A DNA stretch of 23,155 nucleotides from a virus: UHGV virus genome UHGV-0138245. One strand, written 5' to 3'. This document shows positions 11,972 through 23,155 of the stretch, one piece after another. Both the position numbers and the translations under genes were made by a program. The notes under the pieces are model-generated. The model was given only the letters and a program-made list of their open reading frames with translations, was not told the DNA's origin and did no database searches. Position 1 is the stretch's first letter; the number at the start of each line of letters is the position of its first letter.

Positions 11972-13017
11972 GCAAACGTAAAAACACCAAGCAGGTAACA
12001 GTTGATCACAACACAAAACCAGGCAACAGCCCAACGGCTGAGGCTTTCAGCTTTGGTGATCCCATTCCTGTACTGGACCGCCGCGAGCTGCTGGACTATG
12101 TGGAATGCGTACAAATGGATCGCTGGTATGAGCCGCCCGTCAGCTTTGACGGACTGGCGCGTACCTTCCGCGCCGCCGTGCACCACAGCTCCCCGATCAG
12201 TGTTAAGCGTGACATTATCAGCAGTACCTATATTCCACATCGCCTTCTCAGCCAGCAGGCATTTACCCGTTTTGTGCAGGACTATCTGGTTTTTGGTAAC
12301 GCCTACCTGGAGAAGCGCACGAACCGTTTCGGTGAAGTTATTTCGCTGGAGCCTGCACTGGCAAAATACACCCGGCGCGGGCTTGACCTTGAAACATACT
12401 GGTTTGTGCAATACAGCCTGACAACACAGCCGTATCAGTTCACAAAAGGTAACGTCTTCCACCTGATGGAGCCGGATATCAACCAGGAGATTTATGGTCT
12501 GCCGGGTTACCTTTCTGCCATTCCGTCAGCTCTGCTCAACGAGTCCGCCACGTTGTTCCGTCGTAAGTATTACATTAACGGCAGCCATGCAGGCTTCATC
12601 ATGTACATGACCGACGCCGCGCAGAACCAGGAGGATGTGAACAACATCCGCAAGGCAATGAAAAGTGCTAAAGGACCCGGCAACTTTCGCAACCTGTTTA
12701 TGTACTCGCCTAACGGCAAAAAAGATGGCATTCAGATTATCCCGTTGTCGGAAGTTGCGGCGAAGGATGAATTTCTGAACATCAAGAACGTCAGCCGCGA
12801 TGACATGATGGCGGCTCATCGCGTACCACCACAAATGATGGGCATCATTCCCAACAACACTGGCGGCTTTGGTGATGTGGAAAAAGCGAGCCGTGTCTTC
12901 GTTCGCAATGAACTGATGCCACTGCAAAAGCGACTGCAGGAGCTGAACGACTGGCTGGGTGAAGAAGTGATCCGTTTCGAAGCCTATGACTTAGGACTTA
13001 AGGGCAAACGAGGCTGA
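11968..13017 (+). CDS. Portal protein (P2 gpQ-like)
   Basis: Track ORF 11932..13017; the ATG at 11968 (MSKRKNTKQ...) gives 349 aa, close to P2 gpQ, and lies downstream of the terminase as in the P2 P-Q operon. Confidence 0.9.
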   Translation: MSKRKNTKQVTVDHNTKPGNSPTAEAFSFGDPIPVLDRRELLDYVECVQMDRWYEPPVSFDGLARTFRAAVHHSSPISVKRDIISSTYIPHRLLSQQAFTRFVQDYLVFGNAYLEKRTNRFGEVISLEPALAKYTRRGLDLETYWFVQYSLTTQPYQFTKGNVFHLMEPDINQEIYGLPGYLSAIPSALLNESATLFRRKYYINGSHAGFIMYMTDAAQNQEDVNNIRKAMKSAKGPGNFRNLFMYSPNGKKDGIQIIPLSEVAAKDEFLNIKNVSRDDMMAAHRVPPQMMGIIPNNTGGFGDVEKASRVFVRNELMPLQKRLQELNDWLGEEVIRFEAYDLGLKGKRG

Positions 13018-13054
13018 CATACTCATAACATCAATAACTGACCAACTCTCACAA

Positions 13055-13088
13055 CGCCTCAGCAGCATTCTGCGGGGCGTTTCTTTTT
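13055..13088 (+). terminator. Intrinsic terminator after the portal gene
   Basis: GC-rich hairpin CGCCTCAGCAG/CTGCGGGGCG (one bulge) followed by TTTCTTTTT. Confidence 0.55.
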
Positions 13089-13177
13089 GCCCTTACATCT
13101 CTCCCCCAACACCAAATGAGGCCGCCAGCGGGCCAAAGGCTGCGCCGGATTTTAGCCATTTCCCCCCGTTGCGCGCG

Positions 13178-13196
13178 CTCGTATCCCCGCCACGCC
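13178..13196 (-). other. Candidate cos (cohesive-end) site
   Basis: Reverse strand reads GGCGTGGCGGGGA..., matching the first 13 nt of the P2/186 19-nt cos as I remember it, about 160 bp past the portal stop (P2 cos is about 140 bp past Q). The cos sequence is recalled, not looked up. Confidence 0.4.
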
Positions 13197-13239
13197 TGCA
13201 CGCTTTATGTAGTGGTTTTCATGCACCTGCATGATCTAC

Positions 13240-13265
13240 GCAAAAGCCCGCCAGTTCTGGCGGGC
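13240..13265 (-). terminator. Intrinsic terminator downstream of the SOS operon
   Basis: Perfect 9-bp stem GCCCGCCAG/CTGGCGGGC followed on the - strand by a short T-run (TTTTG). Confidence 0.5.
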
Positions 13266-13400
13266 CTTAGCAAAAACGATCCTCAAACGATCATGCGATC
13301 TCATGCGGCATAGACATGCACTACAGAGCTAACGCCTCGCAAGGGCTCGTTGTTCAACCTTGCTGACGCCAGAAACAAGTTCAGACGCCAGCAACGTTTC

Positions 13401-13634
13401 TTAATGCAGCCAGCTGTCGTCTTCCCACACCTTCTGCATAATTTTCATCACTTGTTTTCTTTCTTCGTCCAGTTGCAGTCCGGTCAGTTCCACACCGTTA
13501 GAGCTACCTTTGCGGATACGAATTACCGTTTTGGGATACAGGGGGCGCAGATTGCGGTAAAGCTCGGATTCAAGGGCGTCCAGTGTAGACTGGCTAATCT
13601 TCTGCTCTTTATCGATCATTATTTCAATGCGCAT
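13401..13634 (-). CDS. dinI: DinI-family protein
   Basis: Internal ATG with AGGTGA Shine-Dalgarno; MRIEIMIDKEQKIS...LDALESELYRNLRPLYP...KQVMKIMQKVWEDDSW parallels E. coli DinI (MRIEVTIAK...WESADDW). Confidence 0.75.
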   Translation of the reverse strand: MRIEIMIDKEQKISQSTLDALESELYRNLRPLYPKTVIRIRKGSSNGVELTGLQLDEERKQVMKIMQKVWEDDSWLH

Positions 13635-13644
13635 AAAAGTCACC

Positions 13645-13833
13645 TCAGCTGATGACATCCATTGAGCGGTTGTATTCGTGGGTTCTGATTTTTGCCATGA
13701 GTTCATCTGTCAGTTCAGAAACCCACTGCAGGGCCAGCCCCTTCTCTTCATCACTACACTCACTAGCCGCTACAAGCTTAAGAAAAAAATCAATGCGCTG
13801 GAGCTTCAAAGACTCCAAAAAATAGTCCTGCAT
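13645..13833 (-). CDS. Small SOS-operon protein (possible Tum-like antirepressor N-terminal module)
   Basis: 62-aa ORF with GGAGGAAAG Shine-Dalgarno, directly downstream of a LexA box and overlapping the extended DinI frame. Function inferred from position only. Confidence 0.45.
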   Translation of the reverse strand: MQDYFLESLKLQRIDFFLKLVAASECSDEEKGLALQWVSELTDELMAKIRTHEYNRSMDVIS

Positions 13834-13873
13834 CTTTCCTCCTATGACACCAAAGCAATACTGTATACATAAC

Positions 13874-13893
13874 CACTGTTTATATTTACAGTA
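13874..13893 (-). promoter_or_regulatory. LexA (SOS) box and promoter for the small-ORF/DinI operon
   Basis: CACTGTTTATATTTACAGTA fits CTGT-N8-ACAG; a second half-site (TACTGTATACAT) lies at 13859..13870, just upstream of the operon RBS. Confidence 0.7.
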
Positions 13894-13985
13894 TATAATA
13901 ATCTTACTGATGTAAAACGTTTTTTTACGCTCATCAGCCTGATATGCCTGGTATTATTAAGAGCACGAATTGTTAACCCGCGTAA

Positions 13986-16400
13986 TTAATACAGGTTTCG
14001 CCACTTATCATCTTCCTGCAAACGCTGGTTCCGATAGAAGATACGCAGGCCTGCTCCTGACGGAATACTGCCACCGCGAAGGAGTAAATCTACCTCTTTC
14101 TCGCTGCCATCAAATCCTCTGGACTTCAGTTCATAGACGAGCTGCTGTCGTTGATGGTCTGTAATTCGCTGTTTGTAGTTTCTACGCCGTTTCGGTTTCA
14201 CCAGGCGTAACCTTGCAGCCAGTTCCCGGCGCTCTTTTTTGTTCATACTGTGCAGAAAATCGTGCAACTCCTTGTCATCCATGCGGGTAACATCCGTTCT
14301 GGTGTCCCCATCAGCTGATTTATCTTTCTCCTGTTGGTTCAAATTTTCAGCAAGGGGACAGTTATTGCCACGAGTCCAAGGGGCGCAAGCGCCCTGGTCG
14401 GCTGCCGCCTCCTGAACGTCAACGGCCTTACGAACCATTTTCCACTTCACTGCATGAGTACAGATCTTGCCCTCTGCAATGGGTGACCAGATGCCATAAA
14501 TACGAATGCCGTGATCGCCATAGGCGGTCGGCTCTTCGTTGATTTCATAAGCGGTTCTGATCAGGTGATATTTGCGGGGAACCAGTACGCCGCCCTGCTT
14601 CATGATGTAGGTGGCAAAACAACCAGCATCAGCAGCAGCCAGGATTGCATCAAGGCGCGGGTTATCCAGTACCGGCGCACCTGCTTTTTTGTCCCCCTGT
14701 TGCCTTGCCGCCTGACCAGCCAGCAATCGCAGTTCACGGTAAGCCTGACGCCCCGGAATGCCAAAGAAGCGGAATTGCTGAACACGATGCAGAGACGCCC
14801 AGGCATTAACGTATTCAGCATTATCACGCAGGGATTTCCCCGTTTCCTTGCTGATCTCGCCAGCCAGACCACGCCCGTCAATGTTCTTACTGATGTATTT
14901 CGCGATGTAGCTTGTTGGCGTACCTTTGCGCGGGTTAATCAACTCAGACTTAAAGCGCGGCCCAGTGTTATTGCCCAGCTCCTCGCGGTCTTCACGGATG
15001 GCAAACTTACGCAGTAATGCAGTGATGGCGCGGCGGTCTTTTTTGCGCATAAAACACAACAGGTGCCAGTGAACTGTACCGTCATGATGCGGCTCAGCCA
15101 CCCGCACGCCATACCAGCGCAATCCGGCTTTGTGCATCGCCTTACGAAATGCAGCAAACATGCCGACCAGGTAATCACTACTTTGTCTTACCGTCGCATT
15201 TGTCCAGGTTGGGTTGGGCCTGCCGTTATTTAGCGTGGAATGGAAACGTGACGGACAGGTGATGGTGTAGAAAACGGCGCAGTCACCGCGCATTTCCGCG
15301 ATAAGCTCCAGACCTTTAACACAGGCCATCATCTCATTGCGGCGATGCGCAGGGTTGCTGCTGCTGGCGTTTACCACATCCTCCATGTCCAGCGTGTCGC
15401 CGTCTTCGTTCACCAGTTCATGAGAACGGAAAAACTCCAGCGACTTACGGCGCTGCTCACGTTTATGCATCACGGCTTCATAGCTGACATAAGGAGATGC
15501 TTTTTTGCTGACCAGGCAGACAGCGCGCAACTGCTCTTCCCGCCATTCGCAACGCATCTTCCATAATTTCCGGTACCACCAGTCGGCGCACAACATACGC
15601 GCCAGCGAACCCGGAATGAGTTCATAGGGCACGGGTTTACGGCGGTTTCTTTTCCGACGGAGTTGCTCAAACGCAGGCGGGATAACATCCAGACGCAGGG
15701 TTTCCGCTGCCACCTTTTCCCATGTCTTGCGGATTTCTTCTGGCTTAACGTCATCGGTGGCATACAAATCACCACAAGCTGCATCAAGGCACATGCTCAT
15801 ATGCGCAGCGACAAGGGTAGACAGGCGCTTCACCTGATCCTGACTCATTTCAGGCAGGATAAGCAGGCCATCCAGCCCTTCATGGCTTGCCATAAAGCGA
15901 AAAGAAGCGGATAGCTGACTGTCGCGTACATGCTCCAGTCGTTCCAGACATGGCTTAATCGTCTCACGCAAATAGCGGGAATAAGCCTTTGGCCTGCCCA
16001 GGCTGCTGAAGTATTCAATACGTTGCATCAGCGGCTTGCTGATATGGGAAGGCTGGGCATTGACGTCCGCCAGAATGACCATATCTGGATTAAAACGCTG
16101 CTGCTCATGCGCCAGCTTTGCCCGACTAATGAGCTTATCCTGCTCCATTTCGCGCTGGACAGGATCACGGGATTCATTAAAGAAATAACGCTCCCAGACC
16201 TGATCACTCAGTACCTCGCGGCGCAGGTGTTCCTGCTCGTTATCGGCAGCGTACAGAGCGATCAGGTTTGAAAGCGTAGAAACCGGCGCAACTTCCGCCG
16301 GGTCCAGATAAGGGTTAATGGCCTTTTTCGGGCTGTTCCATGAGAACGATGCGGCAGCTTCGTTAAAGCCGCAGCAGTTGTTCATATCGGCATGACTCAT
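13986..16400 (-). CDS. A: Replication initiation protein (P2/186 gpA-like rolling-circle endonuclease)
   Basis: 804-aa ORF with HUH-type motif ([10 protein letters not shown]) and a paired-tyrosine motif (YIAKYISKN); start overlaps the dam stop (ATGA). Confidence 0.85.
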
Positions 16401-19192: not shown

Positions 19193-19825
19193 ATGAGTTT
19201 GATCAAGGCGGGAAATGATAGTGGTGGGCGCGATGCAATTAACAGGCTTATTAAGGCTTACAACTTCAGCTCACGACAGCAGCTCTGCGAACATCTGGAG
19301 GTATCCAAAAGCACTATGGCTAACAGATACTTAAGGGATAGCTTTCCTGCCGAATGGGTAATTCAATGTGCCCTTGAAACAGGAGTTTCCCTTCTATGGC
19401 TGGCTACTGGTCAAGGAGATATGTATGCGTGTGAGAACGAAGAAACAAATCTCAAAAATGAACCTCCCGTCACTGTAAGACCACTTTCTAAGATCGTTGC
19501 TCCTAGCATCAAACGTGTTGAACTGAAGAACGGCGAACTGCAGGCAAGTGATGAAATTCTTCTTGATAGCAGCCTGCTCGATGGTGACTCATCCAACGCT
19601 TTATTTGTTAAAACAGCTAATAATAGCTTTGTAGTGGATACGTCCGTTAAACAAGTCAGTAATGGCTTCTGGTTAGTCGATATGGACGGAGTTAAAAGCA
19701 TCGTCAAAATTGCGCGCATACCCGGAAACAAAATAGTAGTTAACCAAGATGACACTTCATTTGAATGTTCTGTAGATGATGTGGAAGTCGTAGGACGTGC
19801 AGTCAAAGTAATCAAGAACCTCTAA
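19193..19825 (+). CDS. cI: CI immunity repressor
   Basis: ATG at 19193 with AAGGGG Shine-Dalgarno (track ORF starts at a TTG six nt upstream); helix-turn-helix near the N-terminus; directly upstream of int and divergent from apl/cII, as in 186. Confidence 0.75.
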   Translation: MSLIKAGNDSGGRDAINRLIKAYNFSSRQQLCEHLEVSKSTMANRYLRDSFPAEWVIQCALETGVSLLWLATGQGDMYACENEETNLKNEPPVTVRPLSKIVAPSIKRVELKNGELQASDEILLDSSLLDGDSSNALFVKTANNSFVVDTSVKQVSNGFWLVDMDGVKSIVKIARIPGNKIVVNQDDTSFECSVDDVEVVGRAVKVIKNL

Positions 19826-19828
19826 CTT

Positions 19829-20845
19829 ATGACCATCAGAAAACAGCCGAACGGAAAATGGTTGTGTGAGTGCTATCCCAATGGACGCAATGGTAAGCGC
19901 GTGCGTAAGCAATTTGCTACCAAAGGCGAAGCCATTGCATTTGAAAGCTTCACCATGGACGAAGTAAACAAAAAGCCATGGCTTGGTGAGAAGGAAGATC
20001 GGCGGCGATTATCAGAAGTGATTGAGCAGTGGTATTCCCTATATGGTCAAACACTCGCAGACCCCAAACGCCTGATGGCGAAACTTAGAATTATCTGTAA
20101 TGGTCTAGGCGATCCCATCGCCTCTGAGCTGACAGCAGGTGATTTCACAAAATATCGGGAAGCCAGATTAAAGGGGGAGGTCCAAAATGAAGACGGCTCG
20201 TTCATGTCACCCGTTAAACCTCGCACAGTTAATCTTGAGCAGCGTAACCTGTCATCGGTGTTCGGTACATTGAAAAAACTAGGGCACTGGTCCGCACCAA
20301 ACCCGCTGGCAGGGCTTCCAACCTTCAAAATTGCTGAAGGTGAATTGGCTTTTCTTTCCACGGACGAAATCAAACGCCTGCTTAATGCCTGCGCCGAATC
20401 TCAAAACACCAGCCTACTAATGATTGCAAAAATATGCCTGGCTACTGGTGCGCGATGGAGTGAAGCAGAAAACTTGCAGGGCCATCAGTTATCAAAATAC
20501 CGGATCACCTATACCAAGACAAAAGGTAAGAAAAATCGTACCGTGCCGATATCTCAAAATCTGTATGATGAACTCCCCAAGAACAGAGGGAAACTATTCA
20601 CACCGTGCAGAAAAGCCTTTGAACGAGCAGTAAAGCGAGCAGGCATCGAGCTACCAGAGGGCCAATGCACCCACGTGCTGCGTCATACATTCGCCAGTCA
20701 TTTTATGATGAATGGCGGGAATATTCTTGTCCTTAAAGAAATATTGGGCCATGCCGATATAAAAATGACGATGGTTTACGCACACTTTTCTCCAGACCAT
20801 CTAGAAGATGCTGTTACAAAAAATCCTTTACATAATTTGGTTTAA
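19829..20845 (+). CDS. int: Tyrosine integrase (P2/186 Int family)
   Basis: 338-aa ORF with the catalytic signature (ATGARWSE; HVLRHTFAS H-x-x-R; MVYAHF catalytic Tyr). Confidence 0.9.
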   Translation: MTIRKQPNGKWLCECYPNGRNGKRVRKQFATKGEAIAFESFTMDEVNKKPWLGEKEDRRRLSEVIEQWYSLYGQTLADPKRLMAKLRIICNGLGDPIASELTAGDFTKYREARLKGEVQNEDGSFMSPVKPRTVNLEQRNLSSVFGTLKKLGHWSAPNPLAGLPTFKIAEGELAFLSTDEIKRLLNACAESQNTSLLMIAKICLATGARWSEAENLQGHQLSKYRITYTKTKGKKNRTVPISQNLYDELPKNRGKLFTPCRKAFERAVKRAGIELPEGQCTHVLRHTFASHFMMNGGNILVLKEILGHADIKMTMVYAHFSPDHLEDAVTKNPLHNLV

Positions 20846-20849
20846 TAGA

Positions 20850-21908
20850 ATGAAAAAAAAGCTCACATTAATCATTACCTACGCAATCATTACTATCTTA
20901 ATTGCCTTAGCATTGATATACACTAATCGTCCAAGAGTTTTTATCTTCTTTAGTGTAGCTTATATACTTGGATTGATACTTATGTTCTATTGCTTCAATT
21001 GGCTTAAACTAAATGAGAAAAATCTATTAAAACAACCATTATTCATAGCATCTATTATCGTACCGTTAAAAATGTTTGTTTTGTATGGCCTCTGGGCTTG
21101 GAAAGGCCACAATTTAAATTTCACATCAGACGGTTTTAATCACTTTCTTGACATCTCTAAATTGCCATTATTTATTTTAGCTTCTTCGGTACCTCTTGCA
21201 GCAATCGTCAACAATATACATAGAACCACACAAACAGAGAACCAAATAGAAAAAACACAAAAGCAAATCAATCTTGTTATTGAAAAAAACACCACTGATT
21301 CATATTACTCACATCTGAAAAGCTTCGCTGATATATTCCAAACACTACCAACATTTAAATTATCAAGATTAAATAAAGAAACTAGTGATATAGACAGTAT
21401 TGAACTATCTGTAGTTCATCCGTACACTCTTTATAAAAATATTTTCAAATCATCTTCCATTGATAATGGCTATAGCACCGCTGTCGAAGAAGATTTTATT
21501 CGAAAAACAACAAATCATTATAACAACATAAACAAATCGCTTAAGTCCAACAACAAAAATCATGACAACCAATTAGTTAGCCTACAACTCATAGAATCAA
21601 ACATAATTCAACTTTGCAGACTACTTGGAATTGATTATAAATACCAAGAACATCTTTTCTCAATAATTCCTGAACATCCAAAACCAGATACGGAAGCCAT
21701 AAGCATCTCATTCAATGATGAAAAACAACTAAAGCAAATGCTTTGGGGACTAAGAAATATTCTCATTGAGTTATATGTTTTAATCGACAAGGACCCCTCT
21801 ATCTTCCAAACAGGTAAAAGCAATGGTGATTACATACCTGAGTACGCACTATATGACGAAAAACTCTTTACAAGCATTTTACCTATATCAAATGACCAGC
21901 GCATTTAA
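20850..21908 (+). CDS. AT-rich membrane protein of unknown function (cargo gene between int and att)
   Basis: Real start MKKKLTLIITY... 5 nt after the int stop; four predicted N-terminal transmembrane helices then a ~230-aa Lys/Asn-rich soluble domain; ~28% GC against ~45-55% for its neighbours. Confidence 0.7.
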   Translation: MKKKLTLIITYAIITILIALALIYTNRPRVFIFFSVAYILGLILMFYCFNWLKLNEKNLLKQPLFIASIIVPLKMFVLYGLWAWKGHNLNFTSDGFNHFLDISKLPLFILASSVPLAAIVNNIHRTTQTENQIEKTQKQINLVIEKNTTDSYYSHLKSFADIFQTLPTFKLSRLNKETSDIDSIELSVVHPYTLYKNIFKSSSIDNGYSTAVEEDFIRKTTNHYNNINKSLKSNNKNHDNQLVSLQLIESNIIQLCRLLGIDYKYQEHLFSIIPEHPKPDTEAISISFNDEKQLKQMLWGLRNILIELYVLIDKDPSIFQTGKSNGDYIPEYALYDEKLFTSILPISNDQRI

Positions 21909-22021
21909 TGGCGACAAAGTGGCGGCAGAGCATTAAAAACGCATAAAACATATAAACAGTAAATAACACTAAAGGACTGTTTTTAAACGTAATTCACTGT
22001 TTTTATTACAGTAAAAATAGT

Positions 22022-22066
22022 ATGTAGGAATTTCGGACGCGGGTTCAACTCCCGCCAGCTCCACCA
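22022..22066 (+). other. ssrA: att core: 3'-terminal 45 nt of ssrA (tmRNA), fragment only
   Basis: ATGTAGGAATTTCGGACGCGGGTTCAACTCCCGCCAGCTCCACCA matches the E. coli tmRNA 3' end (T-arm, acceptor, CCA) as I remember it; no 5' acceptor strand or tmRNA body upstream. Confidence 0.8.
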
Positions 22067-22112
22067 AAATTCTCCATCGGTGATTACCAGAGTCATCCGA
22101 TGAAGTCCTAAG

Positions 22113-22146
22113 AGCCCGCACGGCGCAAGCCCTGCGGGCTTTTTTG
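22113..22146 (+). terminator. Intrinsic terminator downstream of the ssrA 3' end
   Basis: 8-bp stem AGCCCGCA/TGCGGGCT followed by TTTTTT. Confidence 0.6.
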
Positions 22147-22269
22147 TGCCCTCAATTTGTCCCGCGAAGTCCGAAGAGAACTGATTAAATCCGAACCTTT
22201 TAGGCCCATTGATAGGCCCAACGAAAAGCTCTATTGTTTTCGTTGGGCCTAAACGCATGGAGACTCCCC

Positions 22270-23103
22270 ATGGCAAGAAAAACCAAGCCGTTAACCGATA
22301 CGGAAATCAAAGCCGCCAAACCTAAAGATGCCGATTACCAGCTGTATGATGGTGACGGGCTTACTCTGTTAATCAAGTCCAGCGGTAGTAAGCTCTGGCA
22401 GTTCCGTTACTATCGACCTCTGACCAAGCAGCGAACCAAGCAGAGCTTCGGAGCCTACCCAGCCGTCTCCCTTTCTGATGCGCGTAAACTCAGAGCTGAA
22501 TCTCGAGTTTTGTTGGCAAAAGATATTGATCCTCAGGAACACCAGAAAGAACAGGTGAGGAATTCTCAAGAGGCCAAAACCAACACCTTCTTGTTAGTTG
22601 CCGAGCGTTGGTGGAATGTGAAGAAAGCCAGCGTAACAGAGGACTATGCCGACGATATCTGGCGCTCGCTTGAGAGAGATGTTTTCCCAGCAATCGGTGA
22701 TATCAGCGTCACTGAGATTAAGGCTCATACTCTAGTTAAAGCTGTTCAGCCGGTACAGGCCAGAGGTGCATTAGAGACTGTTCGCCGCCTTTGTCAGCGT
22801 ATTAACGAAGTCATGATTTATGCGCAGAACACAGGCCTGATTGATGCAGTTCCCAGTGTAAATATCGGAAAAGCGTTCGAGAAACCGCAAAAGAAAAACA
22901 TGCCGAGTATCCGTCCGGATCAGCTTCCACAGTTAATGCAAACAATGCGTACAGCAAGTATCAGTATGTCAACGCGGTGCTTGTTCATGTGGCAGCTTCT
23001 CACCATTACCCGCCCTGCCGAAGCCGCTGAGGCACGATGGGATGAAATCGATTTCAGTGCTAAAGAATGGAAAATTCCAGCAGCTCGTATGAAGATGAAC
23101 TGA
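22270..23103 (+). CDS. intA: P4/CP4-57-type tyrosine integrase (IntA-like), C-terminally truncated; probable pseudogene
   Basis: MARKTKPLTDTEIKAAKPKDADYQLYDGDGLTLLIKSSGSKLWQFRYY... N-terminus about 200 bp after the ssrA end. The ORF stops after ...IPAARMKMN (278 aa), before the H-x-x-R and catalytic Tyr motifs. Confidence 0.75.
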   Translation: MARKTKPLTDTEIKAAKPKDADYQLYDGDGLTLLIKSSGSKLWQFRYYRPLTKQRTKQSFGAYPAVSLSDARKLRAESRVLLAKDIDPQEHQKEQVRNSQEAKTNTFLLVAERWWNVKKASVTEDYADDIWRSLERDVFPAIGDISVTEIKAHTLVKAVQPVQARGALETVRRLCQRINEVMIYAQNTGLIDAVPSVNIGKAFEKPQKKNMPSIRPDQLPQLMQTMRTASISMSTRCLFMWQLLTITRPAEAAEARWDEIDFSAKEWKIPAARMKMN

Positions 23104-23155
23104 ATCGCCACGGGTTTAACAGACACCTCAGAGTCATTTAAGATGGCTTAAAGAG

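What the first reader, a model, noticed from the sequence alone, without database searches (positions are those of the whole stretch)
13401..13893. LexA-box-controlled small-ORF plus DinI-like module beside cos
A near-consensus LexA box (CACTGTTTATATTTACAGTA) plus an extra half-site sits just upstream of a 62-aa ORF followed by a DinI-family ORF, in the slot between replication gene A and cos where 186 carries its SOS-inducible tum operon. This is the likely UV/SOS induction circuit of this prophage. The two ORFs overlap in different frames, so they could be two coupled genes or a single Tum-like gene split by a frameshift.
Basis: partly seen in the sequence, partly recalled or inferred. Interest (0 to 1): 0.5.

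Follow-up and report, generated by a model that had tools for sequence, protein, structure and literature searches.

The report
Prophage SOS switch: tumA-tumB operon
This is the DNA-damage-triggered wake-up switch of a Fels-2-like (P2/186 family) prophage, a LexA-repressed promoter driving a small antirepressor gene (tumA) and a DinI-like gene (tumB); it is real, but the same arrangement is already described for phages Fels-2 and PSP3.

Summary
On the minus strand, between replication gene A (13986..16400) and cos (13178..13196), lie a -35 TTTACA, a LexA box (13874..13893; 17/20 to consensus, unique in the window), a 62-aa ORF (13645..13833) and a DinI-family ORF. The reported overlap comes from taking the longest ORF. 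The DinI gene starts at ATG 13634 (77 aa, own Shine-Dalgarno), 10 nt after the 62-aa stop.

The 77-aa protein is 78% identical to PSP3 TumB and 41% to residues 71-145 of 186 Tum. The 62-aa protein is a profile-level homologue of the 186 Tum N-terminal (antirepressor) half. The region is about 97% identical to Fels-2 and occurs in 1143 of 5426 complete E. coli genomes. The literature already says that Fels-2 and PSP3 carry tum split in two by a stop codon, and the DinI-like gene of the Fels-2 operon (STM2727) is mutagen-induced. The frameshift reading is rejected: the stop/SD/ATG junction persists in the divergent relative examined (Klebsiella phage ST13-OXA48phi12.1), substitutions fall mainly at third codon positions in both genes, and about a third of related loci have tumA with no dinI-like gene after it.

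Minor new points: a second conserved LexA-like element after the box, and identical TumA paired with very different CI repressors. Verdict: correct reading, already known.

The parts
13986..16400 (-). Context: gpA-like rolling-circle replication endonuclease, the last gene of the early operon upstream of the module
   Evidence: 804-aa ORF. Annotated 'replication endonuclease' or 'P2 gpA-like' in records that are about 97-99% identical.
13911..13916 (-). -35 hexamer TTTACA of the p95-like promoter, preceded by an A-tract
   Evidence: Read from the sequence. TTTAC is invariant or nearly so, and the A-tract conserved, in 22 loci from more than 10 genera. It occupies the position of the -35 annotated for 186 p95. 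The generic promoter scan did not call it because the -10 is weak.
13874..13893 (-). LexA box 1 (minus strand TACTGTAAATATAAACAGTG). Its first hexamer TACTGT (13888..13893, 17-nt spacer) is the -10 by analogy with 186 p95; the alternative -10 is TATACT (13890..13895, 15-nt spacer).
   Evidence: Unique match in the window, 0/100 shuffles. TACTGT..ACAGT is invariant across 186, PSP3, Fels-2, ESSI2_ev040, ST13-OXA48phi12.1 and YenM_06.16-2. The core is present upstream of tumA in 32 of 32 informative genomic loci. In 186 the LexA site and the -10 are annotated at the same relative position.
13859..13878 (-). Second, degenerate LexA-like element (minus strand CAGTGGTTATGTATACAGTA): perfect right half ATACAGTA, poor left half (GTGG instead of CTGT), overlapping box 1 by 5 nt.
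   Evidence: ATACAGT is nearly invariant in the alignment of Fels-2-type loci and is present in 20 of 33 loci. It is absent from 186, PSP3, ESSI2_ev040 and YenM phages. Function not established.
13838..13843 (-). Shine-Dalgarno AGGAGG of tumA, 4 nt before the ATG
   Evidence: Sequence; (A/G)GGAGG is conserved in 21 of the 22 aligned loci.
13645..13833 (-). tumA: 62-aa two-helix protein, homologue of the N-terminal (antirepressor) half of 186 Tum
   Evidence: phrog_698 E 3.6e-38, phrog_8554 2.4e-8, phrog_1993 2.2e-3. 186 Tum residues 1-70 hit the same three families, phrog_698 at E 5.9e-6 over residues 6-44. hhalign E 6e-4 over residues 3-42. 98% identical to Fels-2 STM2728. Substitutions against ST13-OXA48phi12.1 by codon position: 7/4/22. 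AF2 helical hairpin, pLDDT 90.
13640..13646 (-). Shine-Dalgarno GAGGTGA of tumB, overlapping the tumA stop codon TGA (13645..13647); 5-nt spacer to the ATG
   Evidence: Sequence. A weak hairpin over it is not significant (z -1.15). The junction sequence differs in ST13-OXA48phi12.1 but keeps stop, SD and ATG.
13401..13634 (-). tumB: 77-aa DinI-like protein
   Evidence: Pfam DinI E 6.6e-23. 78% identical to PSP3 TumB. 41% identical to 186 Tum residues 71-145. E. coli DinI structure 1GHH E 2.7e-6, aligned from residue 1. Below the NCBIfam equivalog cut-off for host DinI (42.7 against 111 bits). Substitutions by codon position 13/4/32.
13356..13398 (-). Strong stem-loop directly after the tumB stop; it sits where 186 has the partial terminator t95a, and has no U-tract
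   Evidence: RNA fold of 13225..13405(-), z -3.76; the 186 annotation of t95a directly after tum.
13240..13268 (-). Intrinsic terminator GGCCCGCCAG-AACU-GGCGGGC followed by UUUU, the end of the SOS transcript before cos
   Evidence: RNA fold. The consensus scan missed it because the T-run has only 4 T.
13178..13196 (-). cos cohesive-end sequence (minus strand GGCGTGGCGGGGATACGAG)
   Evidence: 15/19 identical to the annotated 186 cos; the flanks align to the 186 right and left ends.
19193..19825 (+). Inferred target: 186-type CI immunity repressor, with no LexA-like self-cleavage domain detected by Pfam
   Evidence: Pfam Phage_CI_repr 3.9e-33 plus Phage_CI_C 5.1e-40 and no other family listed. 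29% identical to 186 CI and 92% to Fels-2 CI.

Best explanation
The region is the SOS (tum) operon of a Fels-2-like member of the P2/186 phage family, in its two-gene form tumA-tumB.

In the lysogen, host LexA sits on a box that overlaps the -10 of a sigma-70 promoter just downstream of replication gene A and keeps the operon off. DNA damage activates RecA, LexA cleaves itself and the promoter fires.

TumA is a 62-aa helical hairpin homologous to the N-terminal half of 186 Tum. It is inferred to bind the prophage's 186-type CI repressor, for which Pfam detects no self-cleavage domain, and to stop it binding its operators. The early lytic promoter would then be derepressed and the prophage induced.

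TumB is a 77-aa DinI-like protein, translated from its own ribosome-binding site 10 nt after the tumA stop. It is inferred to bind RecA filaments and tune the strength or duration of the SOS signal, as annotated for the separately translated DinI-like part of 186 Tum. Transcription ends at a stem-loop and an intrinsic terminator just before cos.

Shown here: the sequence elements, their conservation, and the homologies. Taken from the literature on near-identical or related phages: SOS-inducible expression (Fels-2), antirepressor activity (186 Tum; PSP3 TumA by personal communication cited there). Inferred: that TumA inactivates this prophage's CI, and the role of TumB.
For: LexA box: unique and non-random in the window. 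It sits in the same position over the -10 as the annotated LexA site of 186 p95. It is invariant across seven phages with otherwise unalignable flanks and present upstream of tumA in 32 of 32 informative loci from many enterobacterial genera. The phylogenetic footprint covers the -35, TATACTGT and the box.

Synteny: gene A, then the operon, then the terminators, then cos, as in 186.

TumB: DinI Pfam hit; 78% identical to PSP3 TumB; 41% to 186 Tum 71-145.

TumA: it shares PHROG families with 186 Tum 1-70, PSP3 TumA and the Yersinia phage 'tum protein'. hhalign against 186 Tum E 6e-4 over residues 3-42. The bridging Yersinia protein matches both in the same segment.

Both genes are under purifying selection.

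CI is of the 186 type, and Pfam lists no S24 peptidase domain for it, so an antirepressor route is expected.

[quoted passage not shown] Fels-2 STM2727 is induced 5.5- to 14.8-fold by the mutagen MX, and STM2726-STM2727-STM2728 is listed among the differentially expressed operons (PMC2225428). 186 induction works through LexA-controlled p95-tum (PMC7708051).
Against: The TumA to 186 Tum N-half relationship is only detectable with profiles. BLASTP finds nothing against 186 Tum or PSP3 TumA, and the hhalign probability is only 28%.

The -10 is weak and the generic promoter scan called nothing.

No LexA binding, transcription or antirepressor assay exists for this exact sequence. The PSP3 TumA activity is a personal communication cited second-hand.

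Identical TumA proteins sit in phages whose CI repressors are only 35-58% identical. This is unexpected for a highly specific antirepressor-repressor pair.

The fold search gave no informative match.
Confidence: 0.85

Rival explanations
1. The two ORFs are the remains of a single 186-type tum gene broken by a frameshift or sequencing error, that is, a pseudogene or an assembly artefact.
For: 186 carries one fused 146-aa tum whose halves correspond to the two ORFs. The two window ORFs are in different frames, and the maximal ORFs overlap.
Against: The same two-gene layout, with a 62-aa product in most loci (61 aa in L045, 72 aa in L044), is present in 1143 of 5426 E. coli genomes, in 50 or more phage records and in 33 species-level loci from many genera. 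Against ST13-OXA48phi12.1 both genes have a third-position excess of substitutions, and the junction sequence differs but still has stop, SD and ATG. Phage Cartapus has a tumA identical at the DNA level next to a tumB with 43 substitutions, so the genes recombine as separate units. About 12 of 33 loci, and the YenM phages, have tumA with no dinI-like gene after it. PSP3 annotates tumA and tumB. The fused 186 form is the rarer one in E. coli, 42 genomes.
Confidence: 0.02
2. The operon is LexA-controlled, but the 62-aa protein is not the antirepressor of this prophage. It would be some other SOS-induced accessory function, such as a host-directed, anti-defence or cross-acting factor, with induction going through another route.
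For: No experiment addresses this protein family directly. Its similarity to the 186 Tum N-half is weak. Identical TumA is found with CI repressors of 35-97% identity and even different architecture, single or double HTH. Databases label it only 'hypothetical', 'Levan regulatory protein' or unknown.
Against: For the CI, Pfam lists only the two 186-CI domains and no autocleavage domain, so an antirepressor is expected. No other LexA box of comparable quality exists in the window. Position, promoter and partner gene are those of tum. PSP3 TumA, in the same PHROG neighbourhood, is reported to carry the antirepressor activity. The title of Bunny et al. 2002, cited in PMC3121763, attributes a lethal lexA-null phenotype in Salmonella to Fels-2, and the window's TumA is 98% identical to that of Fels-2. 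CI N-terminal-domain identity tracks TumA identity.
Confidence: 0.1
3. The LexA-like sequence is a chance AT-rich palindrome and the genes are transcribed constitutively or by read-through from gene A.
For: The intergenic region is AT-rich. The consensus promoter scan found nothing. A hairpin after gene A lacks a clear U-tract, so read-through is possible.
Against: 0 of 100 shuffles give a match this good. The box is the most conserved intergenic feature across seven phages and 32 genomic loci, while the surrounding spacer varies freely. The Fels-2 homologue is induced by a mutagen together with known SOS genes.
Confidence: 0.03

Closest known systems
Fels-2 (Salmonella LT2) STM2728 / STM2726.1 (older tag STM2727) operon
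   Same: Same module. The DNA is about 97% identical over the promoter, both genes and the gene A end. TumA differs in 1 of 62 residues and TumB in none. The LexA box is identical and the second element nearly so. CI is 92% identical. PMC3121763 describes it as tum split by a stop codon, and it is SOS/mutagen-induced.
   Different: Fels-2 carries a 732-nt orf97-like gene (STM2726) and more cargo between tumB and cos. In this window tumB is followed only by terminators and cos.
PSP3 tumA / tumB
   Same: Two-gene arrangement behind gene A with a LexA box over the promoter. TumB is 78% identical. The GenBank notes read 'similar to 5' end 186 tum; UV induction of prophage' and 'similar to dinI and 3' end of 186 tum'.
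   Different: PSP3 TumA (60 aa, phrog_1993) has no BLASTP similarity to the window's TumA (phrog_698); the link is only at profile level, E 2.2e-3. PSP3 has a 3-nt gap between the genes and lacks the second LexA-like element. Its CI has a duplicated HTH domain.
Coliphage 186 tum (p95 SOS operon)
   Same: Same slot (A, then tum, then cos). Same promoter logic, with the LexA box starting at the -10 hexamer TACTGT. The DinI-like part is 41% identical. 186 also makes the DinI-like part as a separate product from an internal GTG that aligns with the TumB start. The CI repressor is of the same family. The mechanism is established experimentally (PMC7708051 and references therein).
   Different: 186 Tum is one fused 146-aa protein. 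The N-half similarity is only remote. 186 has one LexA box and carries orf97 downstream. The fused type is rare in E. coli, 42 against 1143 genomes.
Gifsy-prophage dinI-antirepressor operons (GfoA/GftA) and N15 AntC
   Same: A LexA-repressed small antirepressor that inactivates a non-cleavable repressor by binding it, encoded next to a dinI homologue (PMC3121763).
   Different: The gene order is reversed (dinI first) and the phages are lambdoid. The source paper sets these repressors (gfoR/gtgR) apart as their own family. Sequence relationship of these antirepressors to TumA was not tested here.

Membership tests
186-type Tum SOS operon (LexA-controlled antirepressor of P2/186-like phages) | Located between replication gene A and cos and transcribed towards cos | tested here: met
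   gpA 13986..16400(-), operon 13401..13916(-), cos 13178..13196.
186-type Tum SOS operon (LexA-controlled antirepressor of P2/186-like phages) | LexA operator overlapping the -10 of the operon promoter | tested here: met
   Sequence level only: box 13874..13893, 17/20 to consensus, in the same register as the annotated 186 p95 LexA site, and conserved in 32 of 32 loci. Physical binding is not testable with these tools.
186-type Tum SOS operon (LexA-controlled antirepressor of P2/186-like phages) | Protein homologous to the N-terminal (antirepressor) half of Tum | tested here: met
   Profile level: 186 Tum 1-70 against phrog_698 E 5.9e-6, and the window's TumA against phrog_8554 and phrog_1993; hhalign E 6e-4. 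BLASTP is negative.
186-type Tum SOS operon (LexA-controlled antirepressor of P2/186-like phages) | DinI-like moiety expressed with it | tested here: met
   PF06183 E 6.6e-23; 41% identity to Tum 71-145.
186-type Tum SOS operon (LexA-controlled antirepressor of P2/186-like phages) | Cognate 186-type CI repressor that is not RecA-cleavable | tested here: met
   Phage_CI_repr plus Phage_CI_C, with no S24 peptidase family listed by Pfam; 29% identical to 186 CI. Absence of cleavage is itself inferred from the domain content.
186-type Tum SOS operon (LexA-controlled antirepressor of P2/186-like phages) | SOS-inducible transcription and antirepressor activity on CI | not testable with these tools
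   Only indirect evidence: Fels-2 STM2727 is induced by MX (PMC2225428), and PSP3 TumA and 186 Tum activity is reported in the literature.
Split tumA/tumB arrangement (PSP3 / Fels-2 type) | Two separate cistrons: tumA stop, then its own SD and ATG for the DinI-like gene | tested here: met
   TGA 13645..13647, GAGGTGA, ATG 13634. Same layout in Fels-2, PSP3, Cartapus, KP12 and ST13-OXA48phi12.1.
DinI family (Pfam PF06183) | Full-length match above the Pfam gathering threshold | tested here: met
   81.3 bits against a cut-off of 24.2, profile positions 1-63 of 63; aligns to the DinI structure 1GHH from residue 1.
DinI family (Pfam PF06183) | Being the host DinI orthologue (NCBIfam equivalog NF007893) | tested here: not met
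   42.7 bits against a cut-off of 111. It is a phage DinI-like paralogue, not host dinI.
DinI family (Pfam PF06183) | Binds RecA filaments and modulates co-protease activity | not testable with these tools
   Inferred from family membership and from the 186 annotation 'modulates SOS induction'.

The most novel reading that the evidence does not exclude
Two details are not covered by the papers read here (the primary paper, Bunny et al. 2002, could not be opened) and are not excluded by the evidence.

(1) The Fels-2-type promoter may carry a composite LexA operator: a full box plus a conserved, overlapping second element with a perfect right half and a degenerate left half. This could give tighter or later derepression than the single box of 186 or PSP3.

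(2) TumA may be a broad-specificity antirepressor that recognises the conserved N-terminal DNA-binding domain of 186-type CI proteins. The same 62-aa protein is paired with CI repressors of 35-97% identity. One SOS-induced TumA could then cross-induce several co-resident P2-like prophages of different immunity.
Probability: 0.25. Interest if true: 0.4.

Novelty: already known. Interest (0 to 1): 0.15.

Why it matters
The module decides when a very common family of enterobacterial prophages leaves the chromosome after DNA damage, including damage from antibiotics that induce the SOS response. It is present in about a fifth of complete E. coli genomes and in Salmonella Fels-2/SopEPhi relatives and Klebsiella prophages. 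Recognising tumA, which databases still label 'hypothetical protein' (or 'Levan regulatory protein' in one UniRef entry), would improve annotation. For discovery purposes the arrangement and its logic are already in the literature. Only the conserved second LexA-like element and the lack of co-variation between TumA and CI are small open questions.

Tried and rejected
- **BLASTP**: TumA against 186 Tum and against PSP3 TumA gave no alignment; profile methods were needed.
- **Pfam, NCBIfam, PADLOC on TumA**: no family.
- **PDB sequence search with the TumA profile**: only noise.
- **Structure**: the AlphaFold model of TumA is a confident two-helix hairpin, but Foldseek against viral structures gave no match with E <= 0.001. 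The fold is too simple to be diagnostic, so the other libraries were not searched.
- **Generic promoter/terminator scan**: it missed both the promoter and the main terminator. They were placed by comparison with the 186 annotation, by conservation and by RNA folding.
- **Rfam on 13000..14100**: only a chance miRNA hit below threshold.
- **Hairpin over the tumB SD**, considered as a translational-coupling device: not significant (z -1.15) and not conserved in ST13-OXA48phi12.1. Dropped.
- **My first LexA core pattern** had the wrong spacing and is void; it was redone.
- **Literature**: the search for 'TumA/TumB' returned only unrelated papers. Bunny et al. 2002 (PMC151935) is not in the library, so it is cited only through PMC3121763.
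- **Extra CTGT-N8-[AC]CAG matches in related loci**: these proved to be one conserved coding sequence inside tumB counted on both strands, one inside gene A, and three singletons, not further operators.
Full report
**1. What is in the sequence**

Everything in the finding lies on the minus strand. The elements, in transcription order:
- The 804-aa gpA-like replication endonuclease ends at 13986.
- A 152-bp intergenic region follows.
- The 62-aa ORF runs 13833 to 13645.
- The DinI-family ORF ends at 13401.
- Downstream come a strong stem-loop (13398..13356) and a GC-rich hairpin followed by UUUU (about 13268..13240). The region folds better than all 200 shuffles (z -3.76).
- The 19-nt sequence GGCGTGGCGGGGATACGAG (13196..13178) is 15/19 identical to the annotated cohesive end of phage 186. 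Its flanks align to the right and left ends of the 186 genome.
- The portal gene ends at 13017 on the other strand.

**2. The LexA box**

CACTGTTTATATTTACAGTA (13874..13893) is the only sequence in the window within three mismatches of the 20-nt LexA consensus. No shuffle out of 100 produced one. The core CTGT-N8-ACAG occurs twice in the window; the other copy (4768) has a GC-rich spacer.

Read on the coding strand, the region is TTTACA, then 17 nt, then TACTGTAAATATAAACAGTG. In the 186 record the p95 promoter is annotated as -35 TTCACA, 18 nt, -10 TACTGT, and the putative LexA site starts at that same hexamer. The architecture is therefore the same.

A generic sigma-70 scan called nothing here, because TACTGT matches only 3 of 6 positions of TATAAT. 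TATACT with a 15-nt spacer is an alternative -10.

**3. Conservation of the box**

- In an alignment of the window with Fels-2, Klebsiella phage ST13-OXA48phi12.1, ESSI2_ev040, 186, PSP3 and Yersinia phage YenM_06.16-2, TACTGT and CAGT of the box are invariant while the flanks are barely alignable.
- A scan of one genome per species returned 33 loci encoding a TumA relative. The genera are Escherichia, Buttiauxella, Serratia, Citrobacter, Kluyvera, Raoultella, Enterobacter, Lelliottia, Leclercia, Klebsiella, Pseudescherichia, Pantoea, Tatumella and Erwinia, plus unnamed Enterobacteriaceae and Erwiniaceae.
- In 32 of them CTGT-N8-[AC]CAG lies 38-95 nt upstream of the ATG. The 33rd is a contig with only 53 nt of upstream sequence.
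- The alignment of 22 such promoters is a clean footprint: an A-tract, TTTAC(A), a free spacer, TATACTGT, the box, and AGGAGG before the ATG.

**4. The 'extra half-site'**

TACTGTATAC at 13859..13868 is real. On the coding strand it reads CAGTGGTTATGTATACAGTA. That is a 20-mer with a perfect right half and a poor left half (GTGG for CTGT), overlapping box 1 by 5 nt.

ATACAGT at this position is nearly invariant in the alignment of Fels-2-type promoters and is present in 20 of 33 loci. It is missing in 186, PSP3, ESSI2_ev040 and YenM, and in the Pantoea/Erwinia-type loci with a short leader.

It is therefore a conserved, lineage-specific element that the papers read here do not mention. Whether it is a weak second LexA site, part of a composite operator, or a 5'-UTR element cannot be decided here. 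Two LexA dimers with centres 15 bp apart would probably clash; that is my inference.

**5. The two ORFs do not really overlap**

The 101-aa ORF starting at 13706 is only the longest possible reading. The DinI homology starts at ATG 13634 (MRIEIMIDKEQK...). That start aligns with:
- residue 1 of E. coli DinI (PDB 1GHH);
- residue 1 of PSP3 TumB (78% identity over all 77 residues);
- the GTG from which 186 makes its 'truncated Tum' (residue 71 of Tum; 41% identity).

GAGGTGA precedes it by 5 nt and overlaps the tumA stop codon. GenBank and RefSeq records of near-identical sequences use this start. The genes are separated by 10 nt.

**6. The small ORF is a Tum N-half homologue**

BLASTP finds nothing between the 62-aa protein and 186 Tum or PSP3 TumA. 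Profiles connect them:
- The 62-aa protein belongs to phrog_698 (E 3.6e-38). It also hits phrog_8554 (2.4e-8) and phrog_1993 (2.2e-3).
- Residues 1-70 of 186 Tum hit phrog_1993 (1.5e-23), phrog_8554 (3.4e-12) and phrog_698 (5.9e-6, residues 6-44 against profile positions 6-44).
- PSP3 TumA is phrog_1993 and the Yersinia phage 'tum protein' is phrog_8554; the Yersinia protein also hits phrog_698 at 1.2e-9.
- A profile of 25 TumA sequences aligned to 186 Tum gives hhalign E 6e-4 over residues 3-42 of both, though the probability is only 28% because the profile is shallow.
- The Yersinia protein matches both proteins by tblastn in the same segment.

The shared core is h-x-R-I/V-D/E-h-h-A/L-x-L ... 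C ... D/E ... h-A-L-x-h-h-A/S-E-L/I. AlphaFold predicts a confident two-helix hairpin (pLDDT 90). The fold is too simple for a fold search to say anything.

**7. Two genes, not a broken one**

- The region is about 97% identical to Fels-2 and to many Klebsiella and Escherichia phages. It occurs in 1143 of 5426 complete E. coli genomes. The fused 186-type tum is found in 42.
- Against ST13-OXA48phi12.1, substitutions by codon position are 7/4/22 in tumA and 13/4/32 in tumB. The junction there has a different sequence but still has stop, SD and ATG.
- Phage Cartapus has a tumA identical at every nucleotide next to a tumB with 43 substitutions, so a recombination breakpoint lies between the genes.
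- In about 12 of 33 genomic loci, and in the YenM phages, tumA has no dinI-like gene behind it.

TumA with its LexA box is the constant core and TumB is a frequent companion.

**8. The target**

The window encodes a repressor with the two Pfam domains defined on 186 CI (Phage_CI_repr, Phage_CI_C). Pfam lists no LexA-like S24 peptidase domain for it. It is 29% identical to 186 CI and 92% identical to Fels-2 CI. Next to it lie a CII (CP76) homologue, an apl-sized ORF and a P2-type integrase. A repressor with no detectable autocleavage domain is expected to need an antirepressor for SOS induction, as in 186 (PMC7708051).

**9. What the literature already says**

- Lemire et al. 2011 (PMC3121763) state that Tum looks like a fusion of an antirepressor and DinI.
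[quoted passage not shown] - The title of Bunny et al. attributes a lethal lexA-null phenotype in Salmonella to the Fels-2 prophage. I could not open that paper.
- The PSP3 GenBank record names the genes tumA and tumB.
- In MX-treated Salmonella TA100 (Fels-2+), STM2727 was induced 5.5- to 14.8-fold alongside sulA, umuD, recN and dinI. STM2726-STM2727-STM2728 appears in that paper's list of differentially expressed operons (PMC2225428).

The window's module is the same as that of Fels-2: TumA differs in 1 of 62 residues and TumB in none.

**10. Mechanism**

My commitment is as follows.
1. LexA on box 1 blocks the -10.
2. DNA damage leads to LexA self-cleavage.
3. tumA-tumB is transcribed.
4. 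TumA binds CI and keeps it off its operators.
5. The early lytic promoter opens, and excision and replication follow.
6. TumB binds RecA filaments and shapes the SOS signal.
7. The transcript stops before cos.

The basis for each part:
- Sequence elements, conservation and homologies are shown here.
- SOS induction and antirepressor activity come from the literature on Fels-2, PSP3 and 186.
- The TumA-CI contact in this prophage and the role of TumB are inferred.

Confidence that this is the tumA-tumB SOS operon is about 0.85 to 0.9. Confidence that TumA is this prophage's antirepressor is about 0.75.

**11. Side observation bearing on the mechanism**

TumA is 100% identical in phages whose CI is 97% (Kp4865-2), 58% (Cartapus), 41% (KP12) and 35% (Kp4872-2, whose CI has a duplicated HTH) identical to the window's CI.

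Split by domain across ten phages, the pattern is:

| TumA relatedness to the window | CI N-terminal (HTH) domain identity |
|---|---|
| 40-44 of 44 core residues identical | 58-100% |
| 23 of 44 identical | 54% |
| Related only at profile level | 40-45% |

The CI C-terminal domain is flat at 24-34% outside the two closest relatives, Fels-2 (88%) and Cartapus (55%). This hints that TumA addresses the DNA-binding domain and may act on several immunity types. The sample is small and confounded by phylogeny.

**12. Verdict**

The frameshift alternative is wrong. The module is a textbook-type prophage SOS switch already described for Fels-2 and PSP3. Interest is low. The residual open points are the conserved second LexA-like element and the breadth of TumA specificity.

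Noticed in passing
window 13017..13400: The slot between tumB and cos/portal is empty here (terminators and cos only). Relatives carry cargo there: an orf97-like gene in Fels-2 and 186, an AIPR-family gene in E. coli 98193, a Hypoth_Ymh gene in phage vB_EcoM-813R9. Only 23 E. coli genomes have a match covering at least 80% of the contiguous tumB-cos-portal junction, out of 1253 genomes with a partial match to that stretch. From my own knowledge, this is the P2 old/tin-type variable cargo or defence hotspot.
   Followed up: partly
window 13645..13833 and 19193..19825; loci L009, L010, L012: Identical TumA proteins are paired with 186-type CI repressors of 35-97% identity, including CIs with a duplicated HTH domain (Kp4872-2; also PSP3 and E. 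coli 98193). CI N-terminal-domain identity tracks TumA identity; C-terminal-domain identity does not. This suggests either a broad-specificity antirepressor or free shuffling of the two modules.
   Followed up: partly
L010 (phage Cartapus) 6815..7247 against window 13401..13833: tumA is identical at all 189 nucleotides, while the adjacent tumB has 43 substitutions. A recombination breakpoint therefore lies in or near the 10-nt gap between the genes.
   Followed up: no
loci L022, L026, L032, L036, L040, L041, L043-L048; L005: About a third of species-level loci, and the Yersinia YenM phages, have a LexA box and tumA with no dinI-like gene within 400 nt downstream.
   Followed up: partly
window 13903..13943 (-): A hairpin CUGAUGAGCGUAAAAAAACGUUUUACAUCAG lies after gene A and overlaps the -35 of the tum promoter (z -2.26, 4 of 200 shuffles as good). 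It may be a weak terminator or insulator between the early operon and the SOS operon.
   Followed up: no
window 13842..13934 (-): Gene callers in public data often extend tumA upstream through the LexA box, giving 87-109-aa products that begin MNVKKRFTSVRLLYTVNINSGY.... In this window that reading is a separate 30-aa ORF closed by a stop. The extension is an annotation artefact.
   Followed up: partly
window 19829..23155: After the P2-type integrase (19829..20845) come a 366-aa ORF with no Pfam or PADLOC hit (20808..21908) and the start of a second integrase with an Arm-DNA-bind_3 N-terminal domain (22234..23103, running to the window end). No tRNA gene is found anywhere in the window. This may be a second integrated element next to the prophage.
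   Followed up: no
Fels-2 STM2728 (the homologue of window tumA): A Salmonella sRNA paper remarks that the sponge RNA SroC might regulate 'the phage-derived STM2728 mRNA' independently of GcvB (PMC4474525). That would be a possible post-transcriptional layer on tumA.
   Followed up: no
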